Shown here: positions 527 to 51,659 of the stretch, in pieces
How positions within the stretch are numbered: position 1 is the first letter of the stretch
Layout: each line of letters starts with the position of its first letter
Assembly (NCBI GenBank): GCA_040387855.1
Contig: JAZKCY010000001.1
Coordinates: 253,857-317,856 of the forward strand
Direction: 5' to 3'
Source: Patescibacteria group bacterium
GTDB taxonomy: Bacteria; Patescibacteriota; Minisyncoccia; Phycocordibacterales; JAKAEA01
DNA: 64,000 bases
Program-made: the position numbers and the translations under genes
The notes under the pieces: generated by a model
The model's input: the letters and a program-made list of their open reading frames with translations, nothing else
The model's database searches: none
Told to the model about the DNA's origin: nothing

Positions 527-1435
527 ATGAATATAAAAAAATGCATGGTACAGATTGCTCGAAGTTTGTGTCTTATTACTTTGATTCTGTGCATGCCTTT
601 TTTTGCACATGCGTATGTTAGTCCTGGAGCTCCTACTGGACATGTAAATGATTTTGCTCAGATTCTCACAGTAGAACAACGACAAGAACTTGAAGCGCGC
701 TTAACTACCTATACGCAGCAGACTACTCATGAGATTGCTGTAGTTACAATTCCTGCTCTTACTGACGAAACAATAGAGACATATGCAGAAAAACTGTTTC
801 AAGAATGGGGAATTGGAAAAACAAAGCAAGATAATGGAGTGCTATTACTTATTTCTCGAGATGATAGAAAATTACGAATAGAAGTAGGTTATGGCTTGGA
901 ACCAGAACTAACTGATGCTGAATCAAGTAGCATCATAAGAAATATTATTACTCCAGAATTCCAAAAAGGGAATTACTATAGTGGGATTTCAAATGGAGTT
1001 ACCAAAATGACAGAAGCGATTAATGCAGATCTTTCTGCATTGCCGGAAGCAGGAGGTAATAGAAACTTTGGTTCGTTCTCATCATTTATTCCGTTTCTGT
1101 TTATTCCAATTTCTATTTTTATGTGGCTCATGAGTGTCATGGCTCGTTCACGGTCATGGTGGGCTGGGGGTATATTTGGAGGAATTGTTGGTGCAATTTT
1201 ATTAGCAATAGGATTTGCTGTCGCTGTAATACCGGTACTTGTAATACTAGGACTTTTGCTTGATTTCATAGTGTCACGTGGGTATCAAAAGAGTAGAAAC
1301 TACGATACACGGCCGCCATGGTGGACAGGAGGTGGTTGGGGCGGAGGATTTGGTGGTGGAAGTAGCGGAGGGGGCGGCTTCGGAGGATTTGGCGGTGGTC
1401 GTTCTGGAGGAGGAGGCTCTAGTGGTAGCTGGTAA
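527..1435 (+). CDS. TPM-domain (YgcG-like) membrane protein with Gly-rich C-terminal tail
   Basis: N-terminal signal/TM, TPM domain region, TM segments, then GGGWGGGFGGG low-complexity tail. Confidence 0.6.
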   Translation: MNIKKCMVQIARSLCLITLILCMPFFAHAYVSPGAPTGHVNDFAQILTVEQRQELEARLTTYTQQTTHEIAVVTIPALTDETIETYAEKLFQEWGIGKTKQDNGVLLLISRDDRKLRIEVGYGLEPELTDAESSSIIRNIITPEFQKGNYYSGISNGVTKMTEAINADLSALPEAGGNRNFGSFSSFIPFLFIPISIFMWLMSVMARSRSWWAGGIFGGIVGAILLAIGFAVAVIPVLVILGLLLDFIVSRGYQKSRNYDTRPPWWTGGGWGGGFGGGSSGGGGFGGFGGGRSGGGGSSGSW

Positions 1436-1476
1436 TTTTATTTATTCTTGAGGTTTGCTATAACTAAAGGACCTCA

Positions 1477-1564
1477 GGAGACGTCGCATAGTGGTCTAGT
1501 GCGCTCGCTTGGAAAGCGAGTAAGGGTAAAACCTTCGAGAGTTCGAATCTCTCCGTCTCCGCCA
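1477..1564 (+). tRNA. tRNA-Ser (anticodon GGA), CCA encoded
   Basis: Acceptor stem GGAGACG/CGTCTCC, anticodon stem CTCGC/GCGAG with loop TTGGAAA, long variable arm, T-arm GAGAGTTCGAATCTCTC, 3' GCCA. Confidence 0.75.
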
Positions 1565-1598
1565 AATAAAAAATTCCTCCAAGCGGTAGCAAGGGGAA

Positions 1599-1943
1599 TT
1601 ACTTCTTCTTGAGGAATTGATCCTTTAGCCGCCGAGAGAACCTTTTCTCTACGGCAAGGAGCTCATATTCCACAGTGTCGTTTGCTTCTGGGGTTTCTGA
1701 CCCGGGCTGAAGCAAGATTTGGACCTTGACCGGTCCAGACTGGGTGTGCGTGACTGTACTGCTTTTGACCTTTGCCACTCGTCCCCAGCTCAGAGTGGAC
1801 TCCAGATCTTCTTCGATCACACTGTCGAAGACCTGGGCTGAGCCGGGCGCTCCGACCTGTGCACTTCGAGGTGATGAGCTTGACGCTCCACACCCGACTG
1901 CGCTGATCATGAACACGATGGCCACGAGCATAGAACGTAGCAT
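1599..1943 (-). CDS. small lipoprotein, GC-rich gene of probable foreign origin
   Basis: Signal peptide with lipobox AVGC; GGAGG SD 6 nt upstream of ATG; GC content clearly above flanks; sits directly 3' of tRNA-Ser. Confidence 0.45.
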   Translation of the reverse strand: MLRSMLVAIVFMISAVGCGASSSSPRSAQVGAPGSAQVFDSVIEEDLESTLSWGRVAKVKSSTVTHTQSGPVKVQILLQPGSETPEANDTVEYELLAVEKRFSRRLKDQFLKKK

Positions 1944-2051
1944 CGGAGACCTCCGAGGTATATGTGAGCGCTGCTTTTATAATAAAAGCATAACTGGCAA
2001 AACTCTGCAATGAAATTTTGTGTTCTAGTATTCGTCGTATAAACTATAGAT

Positions 2052-2690: not shown

Positions 2691-2958
2691 CAAAAAAGAA
2701 ATTCTCAAAGAACTCAAGACTATCCCTGGAGTTGGAAAAAGTATTGCTGAAGATTTATATGATCTTGGATATGTTTCTGTTGCTGATCTTAAAGATAGAG
2801 AGCCCATCATTATGTATGAACGGCTTTGTATAAAAGCAGGGAAGCATTTGGATAGATGTCTTTTGTATACATTTAAATGCGCTGTATATTATGCCTCTCA
2901 CAAAAAACATGATCCTGAAAAATTGAAGTGGTGGTATTGGAAAGATAAAGTGAAATAA
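2680..2958 (+). CDS. Cdd1-like helix-hairpin-helix protein
   Basis: IPGVGKSIAEDLYDLGY HhH motif and CAVYYASHKK block resemble Cdd1/pathogenicity-locus family; overlaps stop of upstream gene by 11 nt. Confidence 0.4.
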   Translation: MISNKKEILKELKTIPGVGKSIAEDLYDLGYVSVADLKDREPIIMYERLCIKAGKHLDRCLLYTFKCAVYYASHKKHDPEKLKWWYWKDKVK

Positions 2959-2981
2959 AAAACACCATTTGCGCAATGGTG
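2954..2981 (-). terminator. rho-independent terminator for small GC-rich ORF
   Basis: Hairpin CACCATTGCGCAAATGGTG followed by T-run on minus strand. Confidence 0.45.
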
Positions 2982-3021
2982 TGTGCAGTGTTCCTGCTCT
3001 AGAGAATCGCAGAGCCAAGCG

Positions 3022-3153
3022 TTAGGGCAGCTGGCATGCCCCGTGGAACTTGAGATATTCCTCTCGCTCAGCGGGGCTCATGTCTTCTGCTTTTCCTGGC
3101 TTGGGCTCGTCGTCTTCCTTCGGGAGTTTGACTTGGTCATCGCTCTTCGCCAT
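3022..3153 (-). CDS. 43-aa highly charged small protein (GC-rich micro-island)
   Basis: ATG preceded by GGAGGA SD at -5; hairpin terminator downstream; not in ORF track (<60 aa); translation MAKSDDQVKLPKEDDEPKPGKAEDMSPAEREEYLKFHGACQLP. Confidence 0.3.
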   Translation of the reverse strand: MAKSDDQVKLPKEDDEPKPGKAEDMSPAEREEYLKFHGACQLP

Positions 3154-3281
3154 GAAATCCTCCGTGCGCTAGAACTTTGAGACATGCCCATGTTTTCGAA
3201 CTGGGCTATTAATAACTCTACAACTATAAAATATCATGTCAAGTGGTATGAAATTTCTTACTTCATCGTCTTTTAATAGTA

Positions 3282-23793: not shown

Positions 23794-25740
23794 ATGAAAA
23801 TTTCTTATAATTGGCTTCAAACATATTTCAAAGATCCGCTACCTAGCCCAACAGAATTGGGTGATCTTCTCACATTCCATGTGTTTGAAATAGAAAGTAT
23901 CGATGAAGTAGGGAATGACACTATACTTGATGTGAAAGTACTTCCAGACCGAGCTCACTATGCGCTTTCACACAAAGGTGTAGCATATGAAATTGCTGCT
24001 ATTACAAACACTCCTGTCCATGAAAAGCCACTCGCTATAAAAAGAGAAAGTATAAAAGACTCACAAGAACTTATTGTAAATATTTATGATGAGCGATGTA
24101 TTCGAGATTCAAAAGTAGTACTTAAAAATATTACCGTAGAAACTTCACCTGAGTGGCTCAAAGAACGGCTCACAGCTATTGGCCAGCGATCTATTAGCAA
24201 TATTGTTGATGCAACAAACTATGTAATGTTTGATCGAGGTCAGCCACTGCATGCATTTGATTTTGATAAGCTTACAAAGAAAGATGGGAAAGCAGCGATT
24301 GGACTTAAGAAGGCAAACGCAGGTGACAAAATAACCACATTAGGTGGCAAAGAATATACGCTTGATGCAGATACTCTTGTATTTACTGATGAATATAATA
24401 ACGATGCACTTTTAGATATCGCTGGTATTAAAGGAGGAACATTGGCTGAAGTAGATGCGAATACAAAAAATATTGTAGTGCTGTCTGCAAATTTTGATGC
24501 ATCATATATACGCAAAACTTCTACAAAATATGGTATTAGAACTGATGCTTCAAAGCGATCAGAAAATAATATTTCTCCAGAATTAACTATGGATGGGTTG
24601 CTTCAGGTCGTTCAGCTTATTACGGATATTTCAAAAACAGCGCCAACAATAGAGGGGATTGTGGATTATTATCCTAAAGTTATTACTCAGCCTAAAGTAG
24701 TGATTTCTACTGACTATATTGTGAAGATGCTGGGAGTTAATATCTCTGAACCAGAAATTACAACTATCTTGCAGAGATTGCAGATTTCTTATCTTCACAA
24801 AGAAGGTGTGTTTGAAATTATGCCGCCACTGTGGCGACGAGATCTTGTAATTGCACAAGATGTTGTGGAAGAAGTTGGACGAATTTACGGATATAAAAAG
24901 CTGCCATCAACCCAGCTTCCTGAAACTAGTTTTAAGCCAGCGGTAAATAAACTCTTTTATTACTCAAATAAGATTAGAACTATATTAACTGAAGCAGGAT
25001 TCTCTGAAGTTTATACCTATGCATTGCAAAATAAAGGGGAAGTGGAGATTCTTAATCCATTAGCATCAGATAAAAATTACTTAAGAAAAGATTTAGTGAC
25101 TGGTATTTCTCAGTCACTAGAATTAAACGTGAGAAACGCAGATCTTCTTGGGCTTGATCAAATTAAGATATTTGAAATTGGTAAGGCATTTGCTAAAGAT
25201 GCTGAATCTACCAAGTTTGCATTGGGAGTAAAAAATGCAAAGAAGATGAAAGTAAAAGAAGGACAGGCTATTAAAGATATTCTTCAGAAAATCGGAGAGG
25301 CATTAGGCACTACACTTGATCTAAAGATTGCAGATACTGATACAGTATTTGAGCTCGATTTCGATGCTCTTATAGAACAACTTCCGCAACCTACTGCATA
25401 CGAACCATATATTCGAAGTGAAGAAGTAACTACTTATAAGAAATTCTCAGCATATCCATTTGCAGTGCGAGATATTGCGGTATTTACTCCAGAGGGAACA
25501 TCTAAAGAAACAGTGCGATCTGTTATTGAAAAATATGCAGGGGATATAGTACTTACAGAAAAAATAAGACTCTTTGATGAATTTACAAAAACATTAGAAG
25601 ATGGTTCTAAGAAAATTTCATTTGGATTTCGAATGGTGTTTCAATCATATGAGCGAACACTTACTGAAGAAGAAATAAATGCGGTTATGAAATCTATAAC
25701 TGATGATATGAATATGCGGGAAGGTTGGCAGGTGAGATAA
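23794..25740 (+). CDS. pheT: phenylalanine--tRNA ligase beta subunit (short, 648 aa)
   Basis: Immediately downstream of pheS; B3/B4 and C-terminal anticodon-binding-like layout. Confidence 0.75.
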   Translation: MKISYNWLQTYFKDPLPSPTELGDLLTFHVFEIESIDEVGNDTILDVKVLPDRAHYALSHKGVAYEIAAITNTPVHEKPLAIKRESIKDSQELIVNIYDERCIRDSKVVLKNITVETSPEWLKERLTAIGQRSISNIVDATNYVMFDRGQPLHAFDFDKLTKKDGKAAIGLKKANAGDKITTLGGKEYTLDADTLVFTDEYNNDALLDIAGIKGGTLAEVDANTKNIVVLSANFDASYIRKTSTKYGIRTDASKRSENNISPELTMDGLLQVVQLITDISKTAPTIEGIVDYYPKVITQPKVVISTDYIVKMLGVNISEPEITTILQRLQISYLHKEGVFEIMPPLWRRDLVIAQDVVEEVGRIYGYKKLPSTQLPETSFKPAVNKLFYYSNKIRTILTEAGFSEVYTYALQNKGEVEILNPLASDKNYLRKDLVTGISQSLELNVRNADLLGLDQIKIFEIGKAFAKDAESTKFALGVKNAKKMKVKEGQAIKDILQKIGEALGTTLDLKIADTDTVFELDFDALIEQLPQPTAYEPYIRSEEVTTYKKFSAYPFAVRDIAVFTPEGTSKETVRSVIEKYAGDIVLTEKIRLFDEFTKTLEDGSKKISFGFRMVFQSYERTLTEEEINAVMKSITDDMNMREGWQVR

Positions 25741-25766
25741 AAATCTAAAAATAAAATAAACGTTTA

Positions 25767-25795
25767 GCCCGGCTGCGTGTGGTACGCAGCCGGGC
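25767..25795 (+). terminator. GC-rich palindrome H1 (putative pheT terminator / REP-like element)
   Basis: GCCCGGCTGCGT-GTGGT-ACGCAGCCGGGC perfect 12-bp stem, weak T-run. Confidence 0.45.
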
Positions 25796-26150
25796 TTTCG
25801 ATTGGCGTCAGTGATGTCGACGCCGATGTTTCTTCTTGGGCCTGATCTTCCCCCTGTTTTTCCAGTGCTTGTTGCACAGGATGTTTGTGGTGCACGTGCA
25901 ACGTTTACTTCGCGTGATACGCTCGAACGGTTGGTACAAAGGGAGAGCAGCGTGCTCCCACCTCATCGGGGAAAGGTTTCGGCATGCGAAGACCTTTTTG
26001 ACCCGATTGGACCTACCGACCGGTAAGAAATTCTGTGCCAATCATTGTCTCCGAGAGAAGTCCTGGCTATTCCAATAGCCGTTCCTTCTGCATTCTTCCA
26101 TACTATAAAAAAATAATCAACAAAATATGTAAATGAAATCCAGAGGTGAG

Positions 26151-26182
26151 GAAGCCCGACTCGCGTGGTGCGGTCGGGCTTC
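26151..26182. repeat. GC-rich palindrome H2, related to H1
   Basis: GAAGCCCGAC-TCGCGTGGTGCG-GTCGGGCTTC; shares GCCCG..GCGTGGT.CGC..CGGGC core with H1. Confidence 0.4.
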
Positions 26183-26215
26183 TGGGAAACGAAGAACGTG
26201 AACGGTCGCGTAAGT

Positions 26216-26491
26216 CTACGCGAGCGTGAGCATGCCGATCTTCGGCACTCGAATGCGCGGCCGCATCTCGTTGTTCGCGTGGTGCGTTGGCGAGTAGTAG
26301 GCGCAGACGGGCGTCGGGACCGTGGGGCAGATCTCACTGTCGACGATCCGGCGGTCGATCTCGTCGATTGGGATGTCGACCGTCAGGCGGTGGTCGGCGA
26401 TCGCCCGGTCGAGCCGCTTTTGCTCGTCGGGGTAACCGAACTGGGACATTGCCGTCGGGATCTTCGGGTGACGGGGAGCGTGACGAATCAT
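26216..26491 (-). CDS. 91-aa acidic hypothetical protein with very high GC3 (foreign-derived)
   Basis: ATG with GAGG SD; third-codon positions almost all G/C, unlike any native gene in the window. Confidence 0.4.
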   Translation of the reverse strand: MIRHAPRHPKIPTAMSQFGYPDEQKRLDRAIADHRLTVDIPIDEIDRRIVDSEICPTVPTPVCAYYSPTHHANNEMRPRIRVPKIGMLTLA

Positions 26492-26649
26492 GAGAACCTC
26501 GAGATGAAACAGAAACCGTTCCTGGATACCAATCCATTGGCACCAGCTTCATGTATTATAGCATTTTGAGCATAAAAGTCAAGTTGGAAAAGGTGGATAT
26601 GGCGGCCCAGGCTAGCCGTATAAAATAGGTATGCTATGATGTACCCCGT

Positions 26650-27210
26650 ATGATTACTATTGGTCTTACGGGCACTATTGGCGCAGGCAAGGGAACGATT
26701 GTCGAGTATTTAAAGACCCAAGGTTTTACACACTATCCCGCTCGGGATTTTTTAATAAGAGAAGTTGTAAAAAGAGGACTCGAACCTATTCGAGAAAATA
26801 TTACTGTAGTGGCAAATGATCTCCGAAAGATCCATTCTCCTGATTATATAATCTCTGAACTTTCAAAAGAGCGAGCAACAAATCCTGGTAATGCAATTAT
26901 TGAATCTATTAGAAATTTAGGGGAGATAGATTATCTTAGAAAGACTATTCCCAATTTTTATTTGTTTGCTGTTGATGCAGATTTGAAACTTCGGTATGAA
27001 CGAATCCTAGAACGGGGATTGAGTACTGATCACATTTCATTTGAGCAGTTTGTGATAGACGAAAATAAAGAGATGGATTCTAAGGAACTCTGGAAACAAA
27101 ATATTCGAGCTTGTATTTCACAGGCAGATTTTGTATTCGAAAATAATGGGACTATTGAAGAACTCTCAGTGAAAGTGGAGGAAGTGCTTAAAAATTTGAC
27201 TAATAAGTAA
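26650..27210 (+). CDS. coaE: P-loop nucleotide kinase, dephospho-CoA kinase-like
   Basis: IGLTGTIGAGKGT Walker A at N-terminus and VDADLKLRYERILERGLS pattern like CoaE; low-GC native composition. Confidence 0.45.
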   Translation: MITIGLTGTIGAGKGTIVEYLKTQGFTHYPARDFLIREVVKRGLEPIRENITVVANDLRKIHSPDYIISELSKERATNPGNAIIESIRNLGEIDYLRKTIPNFYLFAVDADLKLRYERILERGLSTDHISFEQFVIDENKEMDSKELWKQNIRACISQADFVFENNGTIEELSVKVEEVLKNLTNK

Positions 27211-27553
27211 ATCCTCTTAAACTAACCTGAGAACTGGGGGCAGTCCTAACCCGAGGTCCACATGGCAGAATTTGGAGATGAATGGTCTGTGTGCTCGTGT
27301 TCGTGTCACGACCCAAATGGCGGGCCGCCGCGCGCTGACCACTGCATTCCGTGTTGTACTCATTGCCCGTGGTGTGCTCAGAACATCACGGGCAACCTCG
27401 ATGCACACATTGCTGGTGTTCATCCCACACACGTGGGGCAACCCTTTCCTTTCGTCAGTCCCTTAGCGGGGCTTTCCGACCAACCACTGGTCGGGTAGTC
27501 AGCAGGGGATTTTTTTATTACAAAATTTATATAAAAAAAGCCGTTCGCGGGTG

Positions 27554-27967
27554 CTACTTGGCTGGTGTTTTTTCGAAACTTTTTGCAAGGTAAAGTGTGG
27601 TATTGTAGGCAACTTTGAATTGAACATACCACACTTGTCCTACACTCCCGGTGCTATCATCCCGACCTCTCGGATTGAACCACACCTGCCGCACAACATA
27701 TGTGGCATGCTCTTCAGTGAGAGTGATATCGCCGATCTCGGGGGGAATGGGTGTTACAACCGGGCGGACTACATCATCCACCTTGAATGGCGGTTGCAAC
27801 CCAAGGAGCCGAGCGTGTAAGGCTCCGCTTAGCCAGTTCACCATCTTGCGAGTTGCGCGTAACCCGGGCTCTTCACCAAAGGAAGTGGCTCCGGTTCGCT
27901 CTGCAGCACGTACAAGCTCCTGCACAAGCTCGACGTTATCCATCGTGTACGGATCTCTTTTTGACAT
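27554..27967 (-). CDS. 137-aa hypothetical protein in GC-rich micro-island
   Basis: ATG preceded by AAGGAG SD at -7; no family recognised. Confidence 0.4.
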   Translation of the reverse strand: MSKRDPYTMDNVELVQELVRAAERTGATSFGEEPGLRATRKMVNWLSGALHARLLGLQPPFKVDDVVRPVVTPIPPEIGDITLTEEHATYVVRQVWFNPRGRDDSTGSVGQVWYVQFKVAYNTTLYLAKSFEKTPAK

Positions 27968-28062
27968 GCGGTTACTCCTTTTCCATACATTATAGTAGTC
28001 AAAATTGGGTTTGTTGCAAGCTCTAAAATTTGCTATAATAGAGTATCTAAAAATTTACAAAA

Positions 28063-30162
28063 ATGGCTAAATCAGACGAGAAGAAAAAGAAAGAAGGGAG
28101 TTACGGCGCGGAAGATATTCAAGTCCTCGAGGGTCTGGAACCGGTGCGAAAGCGACCGGGTATGTACATTGGTACAACTGGACCCGATGGTCTTCACCAT
28201 CTTATTTGGGAAATCTTCGATAACTCTCGTGACGAAGCCATGGGCGGTCATTGTAATGATATTGAAGTAGCCATTTTGCCTGGTGAGTTTATTCGTGTTG
28301 TCGACAACGGCCGAGGTATTCCCGTAGACAAACATTCAAAAACAAAAGTATCTGCTCTTGAAACTATTATGACCGTGCTTCATGCCGGAGGTAAATTCGG
28401 AGGTGAAGGATACAAAGTATCTGGAGGTCTTCACGGAGTGGGAGCATCGGTAGTAAACGCGCTTTCAAATCACACTCAAGTACGAGTACATCGCGATGGT
28501 GGAGAGCATGTTCAAGAATATGCTAAAGGGAAAATTCTCGCTCCAGTAAAAAAGGTTGGAGCTTCAAAGCTCAACGGAACTATCGTAAAATTTCAACCTG
28601 ACGAAACTATTTTTCAAGAAGTAAAATTTGATTTTCAGCGAGTTGTAAATCATCTTCGACAACAGGCTTACTTGGTTAAGGGCCTAAGAATTACTGTTAT
28701 TGATGCACGAGGTTATGAAGGTAAGATACGTGATGAGGAAGTAGCATATCTCCGTGAATTGGCTCTTGAAGTGCCATCACAGTCGTTCTACTTTGAAGGA
28801 GGACTTATGTCATTGGTGAAGTTCCAAAACACACTCTTCAAACCAGTACATAAAAATATTTTCTACATTGAAAAAAACACAACTGAATATGAAACAGTAG
28901 AAGTATCTCTCCAGTATGTTGACGATATGAGTTCACGTATCCTTCCTTTTGCAAACAATATTTACAACTCAGAAGGAGGAACTCATGTTACAGGATTTAA
29001 GACTGCGCTTACACGTATGCTTAATACCTATGGCCGAAAGAATAATCTCATTAAAGAATCAGAAGAAAACTTTACAGGTGAAGACGTACTTGAAGGTCTC
29101 ACTGCCGTTGTGTCTGTAAAGATTCGAGAAATTCAATTCGAAGGACAAACAAAAGCAAAGCTTGGAACTGTGGAAGCTCGAGGAATGGTTGAATCTGTGT
29201 TTAGTGAGGCATTTGAATTCTTCCTTGAAGAAAATCCAGACGATGCACGAGCTATCATTCAGAAAGTTATTCTTGCTCTTCGAGCACGAAAAGCTGCGAA
29301 GGCTGCAAAGGATTCTATTTTGCGAAAGGGAGCTCTTGAAGGATTTGGTCTTCCAGGAAAACTTAAGGATTGCCAAAGCAAAGATGCTACAGAATCAGAA
29401 CTCTTCATTGTGGAGGGAGACTCAGCGGGTGGTACAGCTACACAAGGACGAGATCGAAAGACTCAGGCTATCTTGCCGTTGAAAGGAAAAGTGCTCAACG
29501 TGGAACGAGCTCGCCTCGATAAGATTTTGGCATTTGCCGAAATCAAATACTTGGTTATTGCGCTGGGAACTGCGATTGGTGATACTTTCGATATTTCACG
29601 ACTACGTTATCACAAGATTATTATTGCAACGGATGCGGACGTCGACGGTGCTCACATTCGAACATTGTTGCTAACCCTTTTCTTCCGATACTTCCGACCA
29701 CTTATTGATGCGGGCAATATCTACATCGCACAACCACCACTCTTTAAGATTAAACGAGGAAAGCAGATTGAGTATGCATACTCACTCGAAGAACGAGATC
29801 ATATTATTAAAAATGTGTTTGGATACAAGGGAGAAGTAGAAGAAATTATCCAGACAGAACACAACACTCCATCAGAAGAAGTTTTTGTTACCGAAGCCGT
29901 ATCTGATGAACAGCTCGATGAAGAACGAGAAGTGAAAAAGAAAGGAAAGCCTGATGTACAACGATACAAGGGTCTTGGAGAAATGAACGCCGAAGAGTTG
30001 TGGGAAACAACAATGGATCCAACTCGACGAGTGCTTAAGCGAGTAGAAGTGGGAGATGCTACTGAAGCTGATAAAGTCTTCGATATCTTGATGGGTACAG
30101 ATGTGCCATCACGAAAGAGTTTCATCCAGTCGAATGCGCAGAAAGCGAATATCGATATTTAA
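28063..30162 (+). CDS. gyrB: DNA gyrase subunit B
   Basis: GHKL ATPase N-domain, TOPRIM (EGDSAGG) and C-terminal tail; 699 aa. Confidence 0.9.
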   Translation: MAKSDEKKKKEGSYGAEDIQVLEGLEPVRKRPGMYIGTTGPDGLHHLIWEIFDNSRDEAMGGHCNDIEVAILPGEFIRVVDNGRGIPVDKHSKTKVSALETIMTVLHAGGKFGGEGYKVSGGLHGVGASVVNALSNHTQVRVHRDGGEHVQEYAKGKILAPVKKVGASKLNGTIVKFQPDETIFQEVKFDFQRVVNHLRQQAYLVKGLRITVIDARGYEGKIRDEEVAYLRELALEVPSQSFYFEGGLMSLVKFQNTLFKPVHKNIFYIEKNTTEYETVEVSLQYVDDMSSRILPFANNIYNSEGGTHVTGFKTALTRMLNTYGRKNNLIKESEENFTGEDVLEGLTAVVSVKIREIQFEGQTKAKLGTVEARGMVESVFSEAFEFFLEENPDDARAIIQKVILALRARKAAKAAKDSILRKGALEGFGLPGKLKDCQSKDATESELFIVEGDSAGGTATQGRDRKTQAILPLKGKVLNVERARLDKILAFAEIKYLVIALGTAIGDTFDISRLRYHKIIIATDADVDGAHIRTLLLTLFFRYFRPLIDAGNIYIAQPPLFKIKRGKQIEYAYSLEERDHIIKNVFGYKGEVEEIIQTEHNTPSEEVFVTEAVSDEQLDEEREVKKKGKPDVQRYKGLGEMNAEELWETTMDPTRRVLKRVEVGDATEADKVFDILMGTDVPSRKSFIQSNAQKANIDI

Positions 30163-51286: not shown

Positions 51287-51370
51287 ATATGTATATAGAC
51301 GAACTATACCAATAATTATCAACATTGCAAAATTAAGCAATCTGTGCTGTAATGTGGACTGGAGGTGCTT

Positions 51371-51607
51371 ATGCGATCACGTATCAATAGGATTCTCCAG
51401 AGGTCGCGCGACCCACAGTCGTACCTCTGGCAGATCCGAGATTCCTGGCCGGTTCCAGCTCTACTTAATACGGCCTTGGTGGCACTTGCCTGTGTTGTGC
51501 CAGCAGCTGGGTTCCTCATTCTTGCAGGTCTGGGCGTTGCTGCCAACCTGCTGTACCTATTCTGCCTCTACATGGGGCCGACACAGCCTCCCCTCAAATC
51601 TGAGTAG
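51371..51607 (+). CDS. small two-TM membrane protein in GC-rich micro-island
   Basis: GGAGG SD 5 nt before ATG, hydrophobic core, strong terminator directly after stop. Confidence 0.35.
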   Translation: MRSRINRILQRSRDPQSYLWQIRDSWPVPALLNTALVALACVVPAAGFLILAGLGVAANLLYLFCLYMGPTQPPLKSE

Positions 51608-51621
51608 GGGAAGGCTTTTTT
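51585..51621 (+). terminator. rho-independent terminator
   Basis: GCCTCCCCTCAAATCTGAGTAGGGGAAGGC hairpin plus TTTTTTATTT. Confidence 0.6.
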
Positions 51622-51659
51622 ATTTGACCAATTTATCTAGATCTGCTACTATAGCGCTC

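What the first reader, a model, noticed from the sequence alone, without database searches (positions are those of the whole stretch)
27211..28020. GC-rich block after the coaE-like gene: a possible structured RNA or Cys-rich peptide, plus a 137-aa orphan gene
The segment 27215-27500 (~290 nt, GC-rich) starts right after the kinase stop and ends in ...CAGCAGGGGATTTTTTT. It contains several strong local hairpins (TTGCCCGTG...CACGGGCAA, CCGACCAACCACTGGTCGG). It could be an unrecognised ncRNA. Alternatively it encodes a 78-aa peptide with 8 Cys (CSCSCHDPNGGPPRADHCIPCCTHCPWC) that has a GAGG SD. Convergent to it, ORF 27554..27967 (137 aa, AAGGAG SD) is an orphan protein. I could not match the RNA candidate to RNase P, tmRNA, SRP or 6S consensus by eye.
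Basis: seen in the sequence. Interest (0 to 1): 0.6.

Follow-up and report, generated by a model that had tools for sequence, protein, structure and literature searches.

The report
Small foreign islet with orphan genes
A roughly 0.8 kb GC-rich piece of foreign DNA sits between a kinase gene and gyrB in a Patescibacteria genome; it carries one real but uncharacterised 137-aa protein gene and a 290-nt transcribed tail that matches no known RNA and may encode a Cys/His-rich 78-aa peptide, so it is ordinary rather than a new structured RNA.

Summary

- **Islet:** The closest available relative (L007) has only 90 nt between the kinase stop and the gyrB start, so the segment is a lineage-specific insertion in a variable pheT-gyrB spacer.
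- **137-aa ORF:** This is a real gene. It has TATAAT and AAGGAG signals, normal codon-position bias and four distant homologues, all in CPR-like contigs in unrelated neighbourhoods. The confident AlphaFold model shows two helices plus an SH3-like barrel. No family is known.
- **290-nt block:**
  - It matches no Rfam family, even with permissive settings.
  - Its body is not more structured than shuffles. Only a 13-bp hairpin and a strong + strand intrinsic terminator (27457-27516) stand out.
  - The 78-codon ORF has GAGG and ATG signals, an unfolded start region and a stop inside the terminator.
  - It also has no homologue anywhere, weak codon periodicity, no gene call and a poor structure model.

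My best reading is an acquired islet with two convergent small units, in which the block more likely encodes an orphan peptide than a structured RNA. A functionless 3' tail is nearly as likely. Interest is low.

The parts
27211..27990 (.). GC-rich islet (52-59% GC in a 39% GC genome), inserted between the kinase stop and the gyrB promoter
   Evidence: Composition is. In the closest relative, L007 (kinase 59% and gyrB 76% identical), the kinase stop and the gyrB start are 90 nt apart. Similarity to the window resumes at the gyrB promoter (aatttgcTATAAT, window about 28025-28039).
27196..27223 (+). Weak promoter-like site (TTGACT-16-TAAACT, 9 of 12) overlapping the last kinase codons; otherwise the block is read through from the kinase gene
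   Evidence: This is a consensus match only. No terminator lies between the kinase stop and the block.
27253..27256 (+). GAGG Shine-Dalgarno-like motif, 5 nt before the ATG at 27262
   Evidence: Read from the sequence. The start region 27225-27300 is less folded than shuffles (z +1.66).
27262..27498 (+). 78-codon ORF (8 Cys, 6 His; CSCSCH...HCIPCCTHCPWC); candidate orphan peptide, not proven to be coding
   Evidence: An ATG ORF of at least 78 aa with an SD-like 4-mer arises in 0.8% of shuffles. There are no homologues, no gene call and weak periodicity.
27363..27395 (+). Perfect 13-bp hairpin/palindrome (one G-U on the + strand) inside the ORF, with a 7-nt loop
   Evidence: dG -22.7 kcal/mol for the 51-nt stretch 27355-27405 that contains it, z -3.7, 0 of 200 shuffles.
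27457..27516 (+). Intrinsic terminator: long hairpin 27457-27511 followed by T7 (27510-27516). The ORF's TAG stop (27496-27498) lies in its descending arm.
   Evidence: dG -30.9 kcal/mol, z -5.5. On the - strand the same region has no U tail.
27517..27553 (.). AT-rich spacer between the convergent units. On the - strand it holds a 3-bp CCG-CGAA-CGG hairpin plus U7, at best a weak terminator for the 137-aa gene.
   Evidence: Sequence. The - strand fold of 27560-27500 is not better than shuffles (z -0.86).
27554..27967 (-). 137-aa protein gene (P0001): N-terminal helical hairpin plus C-terminal SH3-like beta-barrel; member of a five-protein CPR-only family
   Evidence: The AlphaFold model has pLDDT 81.9 and pTM 0.76. 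Codon-position bias is typical of genes (G1 0.37, G2 0.19, R1 0.62).
27975..27994 (-). Expression signals of the 137-aa gene: AAGGAG (complement of 27975-27980) and a perfect TATAAT -10 box (complement of 27989-27994)
   Evidence: Read from the sequence. The consensus scan did not report it because the -35 hexamer is poor.

Best explanation
Positions 27211-27990 are a small, horizontally acquired islet in the variable pheT-gyrB spacer of a Patescibacteria (Paceibacteria-like) genome. It holds two convergent small transcription units that meet in an AT-rich zone.

**Unit 1 (- strand, shown).** This is a genuine 137-aa cytoplasmic protein gene with its own TATAAT box and AAGGAG site. Its product is predicted to be a two-helix hairpin packed on an SH3-like barrel. 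It belongs to a tiny family that turns up singly, in unrelated housekeeping neighbourhoods of other CPR genomes, so it behaves as a sporadic accessory gene. I infer that it acts as a small binding or adaptor protein. Its function is otherwise unknown.

**Unit 2 (+ strand).** This is the 290-nt GC-rich block.
- Inferred from sequence signals, with no expression data: it is transcribed as the tail of the kinase mRNA, or from a weak promoter of its own, and the transcript is ended by a strong intrinsic terminator at 27457-27516.
- Shown: it is not a member of any known RNA family, and it is not globally structured.
- Inferred, about 40-45% likely: it is translated into a 78-aa Cys/His-rich, probably metal-binding, orphan peptide. 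The supporting signs are a GAGG-N5-ATG start in an unfolded region and a stop codon inside the terminator stem.
For: **Insertion.**
- L007 has pheT-kinase-gyrB in the same order with only 90 nt between kinase and gyrB.
- pheT-gyrB adjacency is kept in 33 related loci, with spacers from 22 nt to 7.4 kb and differing cargo.
- GC is 0.52-0.59 in the islet against 0.39 in the window.

**137-aa gene.**
- Homologues P0003-P0006 share the motif G-x4-R-x5-P-x-F-x3-D-x-V (invariant positions 48, 53, 59, 61, 65 and 67 of P0001).
- Each homologue is solitary in a different context: beside 23S/5S rRNA, between rplC and rpsJ, or beside BrnT/BrnA.
- The model has pLDDT 81.9. Fold hits are SH3-type barrels only.

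**Block.**
- The terminator has z -5.5 and a U7 tail on the + strand only.
- There are no Rfam hits.
- The body folds at z -0.83.
- The start region is unfolded, z +1.66.
- An ATG ORF of at least 78 aa preceded by an SD-like 4-mer occurs in only 0.8% of dinucleotide shuffles.
- Cys codons number 8 in frame against 1 and 5 out of frame.
Against: **Against the peptide.**
- There is no homologue among 5.8 billion proteins, IMG/VR, JGI metagenome contigs, phage records, PDB, Pfam, NCBIfam, PHROGs or PADLOC.
- Neither NCBI nor the Logan gene caller predicts a gene there.
- Codon-position signal is weak (G1 0.33, R1 0.47).
- TA is so depleted (0.34) that all six frames are fairly open, and TG/CA richness alone inflates Cys and His counts.
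- The single-sequence AlphaFold model is poor (pLDDT 47.6).
- A perfect 13-bp hairpin inside a short ORF is unusual.

**Against joint acquisition of block and gene.** Their dinucleotide signatures differ, and none of the four homologue loci has a comparable partner downstream.

**Limits on the insertion claim.** No donor was identified. The nearest relative shares only 51-76% protein identity, so the timing and polarity of the change (insertion here or loss there) rest on parsimony and composition.
Confidence: 0.45

Rival explanations
1. The 290-nt block is functionless leftover foreign DNA. It now serves only as a long 3' untranslated tail of the kinase mRNA, and only its terminator matters. 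On this reading the 78-codon ORF is a by-product of a TA-poor, TG/CA-rich composition.
For: - There is no homologue or conservation of any kind.
- No gene is called there.
- No frame shows coding periodicity.
- All six frames are fairly open, with TA at 0.34.
- The body of the block has no excess structure.
- An ATG ORF of at least 78 aa still arises in 4% of shuffles on one strand.
Against: - Genomes of about 1 Mb in this group are compact and AT-biased. A neutral 290-nt segment at 57% GC, which is higher than the GC3 (0.51) of the neighbouring acquired gene, should decay or be deleted unless it is very recent (the rest is inference).
- SD, ATG, an unfolded start and a stop inside the terminator coincide.
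- The 13-bp hairpin is far beyond chance.
Confidence: 0.32
2. The block is a new non-coding RNA of about 280 nt: an sRNA derived from the kinase 3' UTR, or an independent transcript from the weak promoter at 27196-27223. The 13-bp hairpin and the terminator hairpin would be its functional modules. It might act on, or be overlapped by, the convergent 137-aa mRNA.
For: - The + strand folds better than the - strand (z -2.4 against -0.9 for 27211-27515).
- The G-U pair in the 13-bp stem is tolerated only on the + strand.
- The terminator is strong.
- GC-rich islands in AT-rich genomes are often RNA genes (general knowledge).
- The 137-aa gene lacks a convincing terminator of its own, so its transcript could run antisense into the block.
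Against: - No Rfam family matches, even at E<=10.
- Without the two hairpins the block is not structured: 27225-27455 has z -0.83 and 27225-27350 has z +1.1.
- There are no related copies in the window, in 85 related loci or in any collection scanned, so there is no covariation support at all.
Confidence: 0.17
3. The block is the decayed remnant of a zinc-dependent deaminase domain once fused to the kinase, as in anti-phage kinase-dCTP deaminase proteins. On this reading 'HCPWCAQNI' is a relic of the PCxxCAxxI zinc motif.
For: - The kinase matches the kinase part of the anti-phage dCTP deaminase models (NCBIfam NF041025 at 3.8e-14, far below its cut-off; PADLOC dCTPase at 7e-22).
- CxxCA-x2-I resembles the deaminase zinc motif (my recollection, not tested).
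Against: - The block is 57% GC against 36% for the kinase, so they are not parts of one old gene.
- The kinase C-terminus and stop align with L007, which has no such tail.
- There is no Pfam deaminase hit.
- The spacing between candidate His and Cys ligands is too short.
Confidence: 0.03
4. The islet is an assembly chimera or contaminant joined into the MAG contig.
For: The composition jumps sharply at both edges.
Against: - The same 14.4 kb sequence is assembled independently in a Logan contig, 100% identical across the islet and both flanks.
- The flanks are collinear with L007.
- The 137-aa gene carries host-type expression signals, and its relatives are all in CPR-like contigs.
Confidence: 0.02

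Closest known systems
Rho-independent (intrinsic) transcription terminators
   Same: 27457-27516 is a GC-rich stem-loop (dG -30.9 kcal/mol) followed directly by seven U residues on the + strand, at the end of a convergent gene pair.
   Different: The stem is unusually long (about 55 nt with internal bulges) and contains the stop codon of the candidate ORF. The simple scanner missed it because the stem and loop exceed its limits.
Small SH3-like beta-barrel proteins (phage DUF1653-type proteins, SH3b and helicase C-terminal barrels)
   Same: Residues about 60-135 of the 137-aa protein are predicted with confidence as a five-strand barrel. The best fold matches are SH3 domains and small uncharacterised phage barrel proteins.
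   Different: - No match is significant (PDB E >= 0.34; BFVD best 6.6e-3 with TM 0.39-0.57).
- There is no sequence-family hit.
- The N-terminal two-helix hairpin and the PPFK-x-D-x-V motif are specific to this family.
Small Cys/His-rich metal-binding proteins (zinc ribbons, bacterial metallothioneins, WhiB-like proteins)
   Same: The 78-aa ORF has CxCxCH, HCxxCC and HCxxC clusters (8 Cys and 6 His in 78 residues), which is what a small metal-binding peptide would look like.
   Different: - No profile of any such family matches. The best hit is a C2H2 finger at E 0.62.
- The spacings fit none of the canonical motifs I compared from memory.
- The residue bias can be produced by TG/CA-rich DNA alone.
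Genomic islets in variable spacers between conserved genes (hotspots for accessory or orphan genes)
   Same: The backbone pheT-(kinase)-gyrB is conserved, while the spacer differs in length and cargo between relatives. The inserted DNA has foreign composition and small genes of unknown function.
   Different: There is no integrase, transposase, tRNA target or convincing terminal repeat. The flanking 13-14-nt direct and inverted matches are at chance level for AT-rich DNA. The mechanism of insertion is unknown.

Membership tests
Known structured RNAs (RNase P, tmRNA, SRP, 6S and all other Rfam 15 families) | Covariance-model score at or above the family's gathering threshold | tested here: not met
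   The whole window at gathering thresholds gives only two tRNAs, both elsewhere. Permissive scans of 25700-28100 and 27150-27600 return only eukaryotic lncRNA, miRNA and snoRNA noise at 12-20 bits against cut-offs of 60-80.
Novel structured ncRNA (generic criteria) | Folding energy beyond composition, and covarying base pairs in related sequences | tested here: not met
   The body 27225-27455 has z -0.83 on + and +0.47 on -. No related sequence exists in any collection searched, so covariation cannot be assessed.
Intrinsic terminator | Stable GC-rich hairpin immediately followed by a U tract on the transcribed strand | tested here: met
   Hairpin 27457-27511 has dG -30.9 kcal/mol and z -5.5, with 0 of 200 shuffles as stable, and is followed by U7 at 27510-27516.
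Protein-coding gene (78-aa ORF) | Start codon with a ribosome-binding site in an accessible region | tested here: met
   GAGG-N5-ATG is present. Region 27225-27300 is less folded than shuffles, z +1.66. The combination of ORF and SD occurs in 0.8% of shuffles.
Protein-coding gene (78-aa ORF) | Homologues, or codon-position bias typical of genes | tested here: not met
   There are no homologues. G1 is 0.33 and R1 is 0.47, against 0.37 and 0.62 for the neighbouring real gene. It is not called by NCBI or Logan.
Zinc-ribbon, metallothionein or WhiB-type Cys-rich families | Significant match to the family profile | tested here: not met
   Pfam, NCBIfam, PHROGs, PADLOC and PDB give no hit better than E 0.62.
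137-aa protein family (P0001, P0003-P0006) | Full-length similarity with the shared motif G-x4-R-x5-P-x-F-x3-D-x-V and the same helix-helix-barrel layout | tested here: met
   phmmer gives E 1.7e-4 to 9e-4 against 1.84 billion representatives. The profile search gives E 1e-25 to 1e-55 (P0003-P0005 are members of the query alignment and match by construction; only P0006, at 6e-25, is an independent hit). Nine columns are invariant. The model built on the alignment has pLDDT 81.9.
SH3-like barrel superfold (for the 137-aa protein) | Significant structural match to solved SH3-type domains | tested here: inconclusive
Dephospho-CoA kinase (CoaE), for the upstream gene | Pfam PF01121 or TIGR00152 score above the curated cut-off over the full domain | tested here: not met
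   PF01121 scores 24.9 bits against a cut-off of 27, covering residues 3-44 only. TIGR00152 scores 28.5 against 65.6. The better hits are AAA_18 (38.6 bits) and PRK08356.
Horizontally acquired islet | Absent from the syntenic site in the nearest relative, with composition deviating from the host | tested here: met
   In L007 the kinase stop and gyrB start are 90 nt apart. GC is 0.52-0.59 against 0.39. No donor was identified.
Mobile element (IS, MITE, integron cassette) | Terminal inverted repeats or target duplications, a recombinase, or attC core sites | tested here: not met
   Only chance-level 13-14-nt matches flank the islet. There is no recombinase ORF among the neighbours. Inspection by eye found no RYYYAAC/GTTRRRY pair at a suitable spacing.

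The most novel reading that the evidence does not exclude
The islet could be a two-part accessory module of CPR bacteria. One part would be a previously unseen Cys/His-rich metallopeptide, or a dual-function RNA that also encodes it. The other would be the 137-aa helix-plus-SH3-barrel protein. The pair would be convergently transcribed so that the terminator-less 137-aa mRNA runs antisense into the block, coupling their expression. Such modules could move into spacers between essential genes, for example kinase/gyrB here and rplC/rpsJ in another genome.
Probability: 0.08. Interest if true: 0.5.

Novelty: new member of a known kind. Interest (0 to 1): 0.2.

Why it matters
The finding matters little beyond annotation. 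It shows that a GC-rich island in an AT-rich CPR genome need not be an RNA gene. Here it marks a small acquired islet in a variable spacer between conserved genes.

Two modest points are useful.
- The 137-aa ORF defines a tiny CPR-restricted protein family with a confident predicted fold. Its members appear singly in housekeeping neighbourhoods, in one case inside the S10 ribosomal-protein operon.
- Gene callers trained on the host composition skip or mis-frame ORFs in such islets. The 78-codon ORF here and the 91-codon ORF in the neighbouring islet are examples.

If the 78-aa peptide were shown to exist, it would be a new small Cys/His-rich protein with no relatives.

Tried and rejected
- **Rfam.** Gathering thresholds on the whole window and permissive scans on two slices gave nothing.
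- **DNA similarity of the islet.** Phage and plasmid records gave nothing.
- **78-aa ORF.**
  - Searches of 5.8 billion proteins, IMG/VR, JGI metagenome contigs, phage tblastn, PDB, Pfam, PHROGs, NCBIfam and PADLOC gave nothing.
  - A tblastn hit in L014 (E 0.005 in a small database) lies out of frame inside a ribosomal protein L5 gene and was rejected.
  - A weak match to island 1 (E 0.087) was judged to be chance.
- **Other reading frames of the block.** No Pfam hits.
- **137-aa family.** Scans of viral and metagenome contigs with the alignment gave nothing, as did phage tblastn and a PDB profile search.
- **Conserved partner downstream of the 137-aa homologues.** None was found.
- **Flanking repeats as transposon ends or target duplications.** They are at chance level.
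- **The 13-bp hairpin as a repeated element.** The one viral-contig match is an unrelated terminator hairpin.
- **Strain variation for dN/dS.** The only other copy is 100% identical.
- **Deaminase-remnant idea.** Rejected on composition and on the L007 alignment.
- **Literature.** A search for Cys-rich small proteins in Patescibacteria returned no paper.

Full report
**Setting.** The window comes from a Patescibacteria MAG. The kinase protein is MES2436690.1, 'MAG: AAA family ATPase [Patescibacteria group bacterium]', on a 981,549-bp contig. Overall GC is 39%. The local gene order is pheT (23794-25740 +), a P-loop kinase (26650-27210 +) and gyrB (28063-30162 +).

**Check of the observation.**
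- The kinase stops at 27210.
- Positions 27211-27516 are 54-59% GC and end in CAGCAGGGGATTTTTTT.
- The inverted repeat TTGCCCGTGGTGT/ACATCACGGGCAA lies at 27363-27395.
- The 78-codon ORF at 27262-27498 has 8 Cys and 6 His and follows GAGG-N5.
- The 137-codon ORF at 27554-27967 (- strand) follows AAGGAG.
- Only about a dozen stretches in 64 kb reach 52% GC, so the block is a real compositional outlier.
- 'coaE-like' is too specific. CoaE models score below their cut-offs and cover only the P-loop. AAA_18 and PRK08356 fit better.

**The segment is an insertion.** A scan of one genome per species with pheT returned 80 loci, and the best share only 51% PheT identity.
- In 33 of these loci pheT is followed by gyrB, with a spacer of 22 nt to 7.4 kb. 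The cargo of the spacer differs from genome to genome.
- The closest locus, L007, has the same pheT-kinase-gyrB order (kinase 59% and GyrB 76% identical). Its kinase stop and gyrB start are only 90 nt apart.
- Similarity to the window resumes at the gyrB extended -10 promoter, aatttgcTATAAT.
- The 780 bp at 27211-27990, which comprise the GC-rich block, an AT-rich spacer and the 137-aa gene, are therefore lineage-specific and foreign in composition.
- No recombinase and no convincing terminal repeats flank the segment.
- The same sequence was assembled independently in a Logan contig at 100% identity over 14.4 kb, which argues against a chimera.

**The 137-aa ORF is a real gene.**
- Its codon-position bias is that of a gene (G1 0.37, G2 0.19, purine at position 1 0.62). 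It has a perfect TATAAT box and an AAGGAG site.
- A word-indexed search found only the protein itself. An exhaustive phmmer search over 1.84 billion representatives found three small proteins at E 6e-4 to 9e-4, plus a local match to a 3026-aa repeat protein.
- The three align over their full length (41%, 30% and 36% identity over the matched stretches; 23-35% in the full alignment). They share an N-terminal MSK..P[YW]-type start and the motif G-x4-R-x5-P-x-F-x3-D-x-V. A profile search added a fifth member.
- All members come from Logan assemblies of CPR-like contigs. Each gene stands alone in a different neighbourhood: after a 23S-5S rRNA operon (L002), next to BrnT/BrnA and a tRNA (L005), and inside a 1.8 kb insert between rplC and rpsJ (L003 and L004 overlap at 100%).
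- With the five-sequence alignment AlphaFold gives pLDDT 81.9 and pTM 0.76. The model has helices at 11-25 and 38-54 and then a small beta-barrel.
- Foldseek finds only SH3-type barrels, below significance in the PDB (best E 0.34). In BFVD the best hits are small uncharacterised phage proteins (best E 6.6e-3).
- No Pfam, PHROG, NCBIfam, PADLOC or PDB sequence match exists.
- I infer that the product is a small cytoplasmic binding or adaptor protein encoded by a sporadic accessory gene. It has no signal peptide. Nothing more specific is supported.

**The 290-nt block is not a known RNA, and I see no sign that it is a structured one.**
- Rfam 15 gives nothing at gathering thresholds. With lax filters at E<=10 it returns only eukaryotic noise at 12-20 bits.
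- The whole block folds at z -2.4 on the + strand and -0.9 on the - strand.
- That signal is local. The body at 27225-27455 has z -0.83 (+) and +0.47 (-), and its 5' half has z +1.1.
- Two elements carry the signal:
  - the 13-bp hairpin at 27363-27395 (z -3.7);
  - the long hairpin at 27457-27511 (dG -30.9 kcal/mol, z -5.5), followed by U7.
- The long hairpin with its U tract is a textbook intrinsic terminator that works only on the + strand. The block is therefore most likely transcribed rightwards, either by read-through from the kinase gene, since no terminator intervenes, or from a weak TTGACT-16-TAAACT site. The transcript would end at about 27516.
- The 137-aa gene has no convincing terminator of its own (z -0.86).

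**Whether the block is translated remains open.**
- In favour:
  - The start is GAGG-N5-ATG.
  - The start region is less folded than shuffles (z +1.66; 191 of 200 shuffles fold at least as well).
  - The TAG stop lies inside the terminator stem.
  - In 5000 dinucleotide shuffles an ATG ORF of at least 78 aa arises in 4.2%, and one preceded by an SD-like 4-mer in 0.8%.
  - Cys codons number 8 in frame against 1 and 5 out of frame.
- Against:
  - No relative was found in 5.8 billion proteins, IMG/VR, JGI metagenome contigs, phage genomes, the PDB, four profile libraries or 85 related loci.
  - Neither NCBI nor the Logan gene caller predicts it.
  - Codon-position bias is weak.
  - TA is depleted to 0.34 and CA/TG are enriched to 1.6 and 1.4. 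That composition keeps all frames open and by itself yields many Cys (TGY) and His (CAY) codons.
  - The single-sequence model is poor (pLDDT 47.6).
  - A perfect 13-bp stem inside a short ORF is odd.
- My estimates are about 0.40-0.45 for an orphan Cys/His-rich peptide, about 0.3 for a functionless acquired tail in which only the terminator matters, and about 0.15-0.2 for a new sRNA.
- A relic of a kinase-linked deaminase domain was considered, because the kinase resembles the kinase part of anti-phage dCTP deaminases. It was rejected on composition and on the intact, L007-like kinase C-terminus.

**Comparison with what is known.**
- The terminator is ordinary.
- The 137-aa protein is a new, tiny family with an SH3-like barrel, and membership of any named family was tested and not met.
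- The 78-aa ORF resembles small metal-binding peptides only in residue content.
- The islet resembles the small accessory islets that accumulate in variable spacers, but it has no recognisable mobility machinery.

**Verdict.** The ncRNA interpretation is not supported, the peptide interpretation is open, and 'orphan protein' is nearly right. This is an ordinary small acquired islet holding hypothetical genes, and interest is low. It would rise only if the peptide or an RNA were shown experimentally, or if the 137-aa family proved to mark a mobile module that targets spacers between essential genes.

Noticed in passing
window 25765-26590: A second GC-rich islet (up to 65% GC) lies between pheT and the kinase.
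- It holds a 91-codon ORF at 26216-26491 (-) with GC3 of 0.87.
- A near-consensus promoter lies on the - strand (TTGACT-16-TATAAT with TG, 26582..26555).
- A terminator hairpin lies at 26150-26182.
- A further 280-nt GC-rich, TA-poor block lies at 25800-26075 (- strand z -2.6).
- A perfect 13-bp hairpin lies at 25766-25796.
- The database gene calls there (72 aa and 124 aa) are in other frames, and the 91-aa sequence is not in the protein collection.
- No homologue or family hit was found.
   Followed up: partly
L007 11926-12200: The closest relative has its own GC-rich block of about 250 nt in the same pheT-kinase spacer. It has a terminator-like hairpin and a short ORF with very high GC3 (MRRIYRPIHRAGG...). 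The block is unrelated in sequence to the window's islets.
   Followed up: partly
L003 2434-3383 plus L004 1-1514: The 142-aa homologue P0004 sits on the opposite strand inside an insert of about 1.8 kb between rplC (L3) and rpsJ (S10). These two genes are normally adjacent in the S10 operon. The two contigs overlap by 636 nt at 100% identity.
   Followed up: partly
window 26650-27210: The 'coaE-like' gene is a P-loop kinase. It matches AAA_18, PRK08356 and the kinase portion of anti-phage dCTP deaminase models (PADLOC dCTPase 7e-22) better than it matches CoaE. Among 33 syntenic loci only L007 also has it, so it too is accessory cargo of the pheT-gyrB spacer.
   Followed up: partly
L020 9104-9349 and L022 12092-12313: Two other relatives share a small ORF with a CxxC...EYDPxLxHxC motif in their pheT-gyrB spacers (47-48% identity over 31-32 aa). 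It is absent from the window.
   Followed up: partly
window 51351-51625: A GC-rich stretch of about 275 nt (54-59% GC) lies between the start of an RNase R-like gene (-) and the S16 (rpsP) coding region. It gives no Rfam hit even at E<=1, and it is absorbed into an implausible 267-aa ORF.
   Followed up: partly
window 1251-1975 and 2951-3200: Further GC-rich stretches were seen. One lies around a tRNA (1477-1561) and a 114-aa lipoprotein-like ORF (1599-1943 -). Another is 250 nt long, downstream of a 105-aa ORF. Neither was examined further.
   Followed up: no
window 28025-28039 / L007 12923-12937: The gyrB promoter is an extended -10 type (TGcTATAAT) and is conserved between the window and L007. 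The simple promoter scan missed it because the spacing to the nearest TTGCAA is 14 nt.
   Followed up: no
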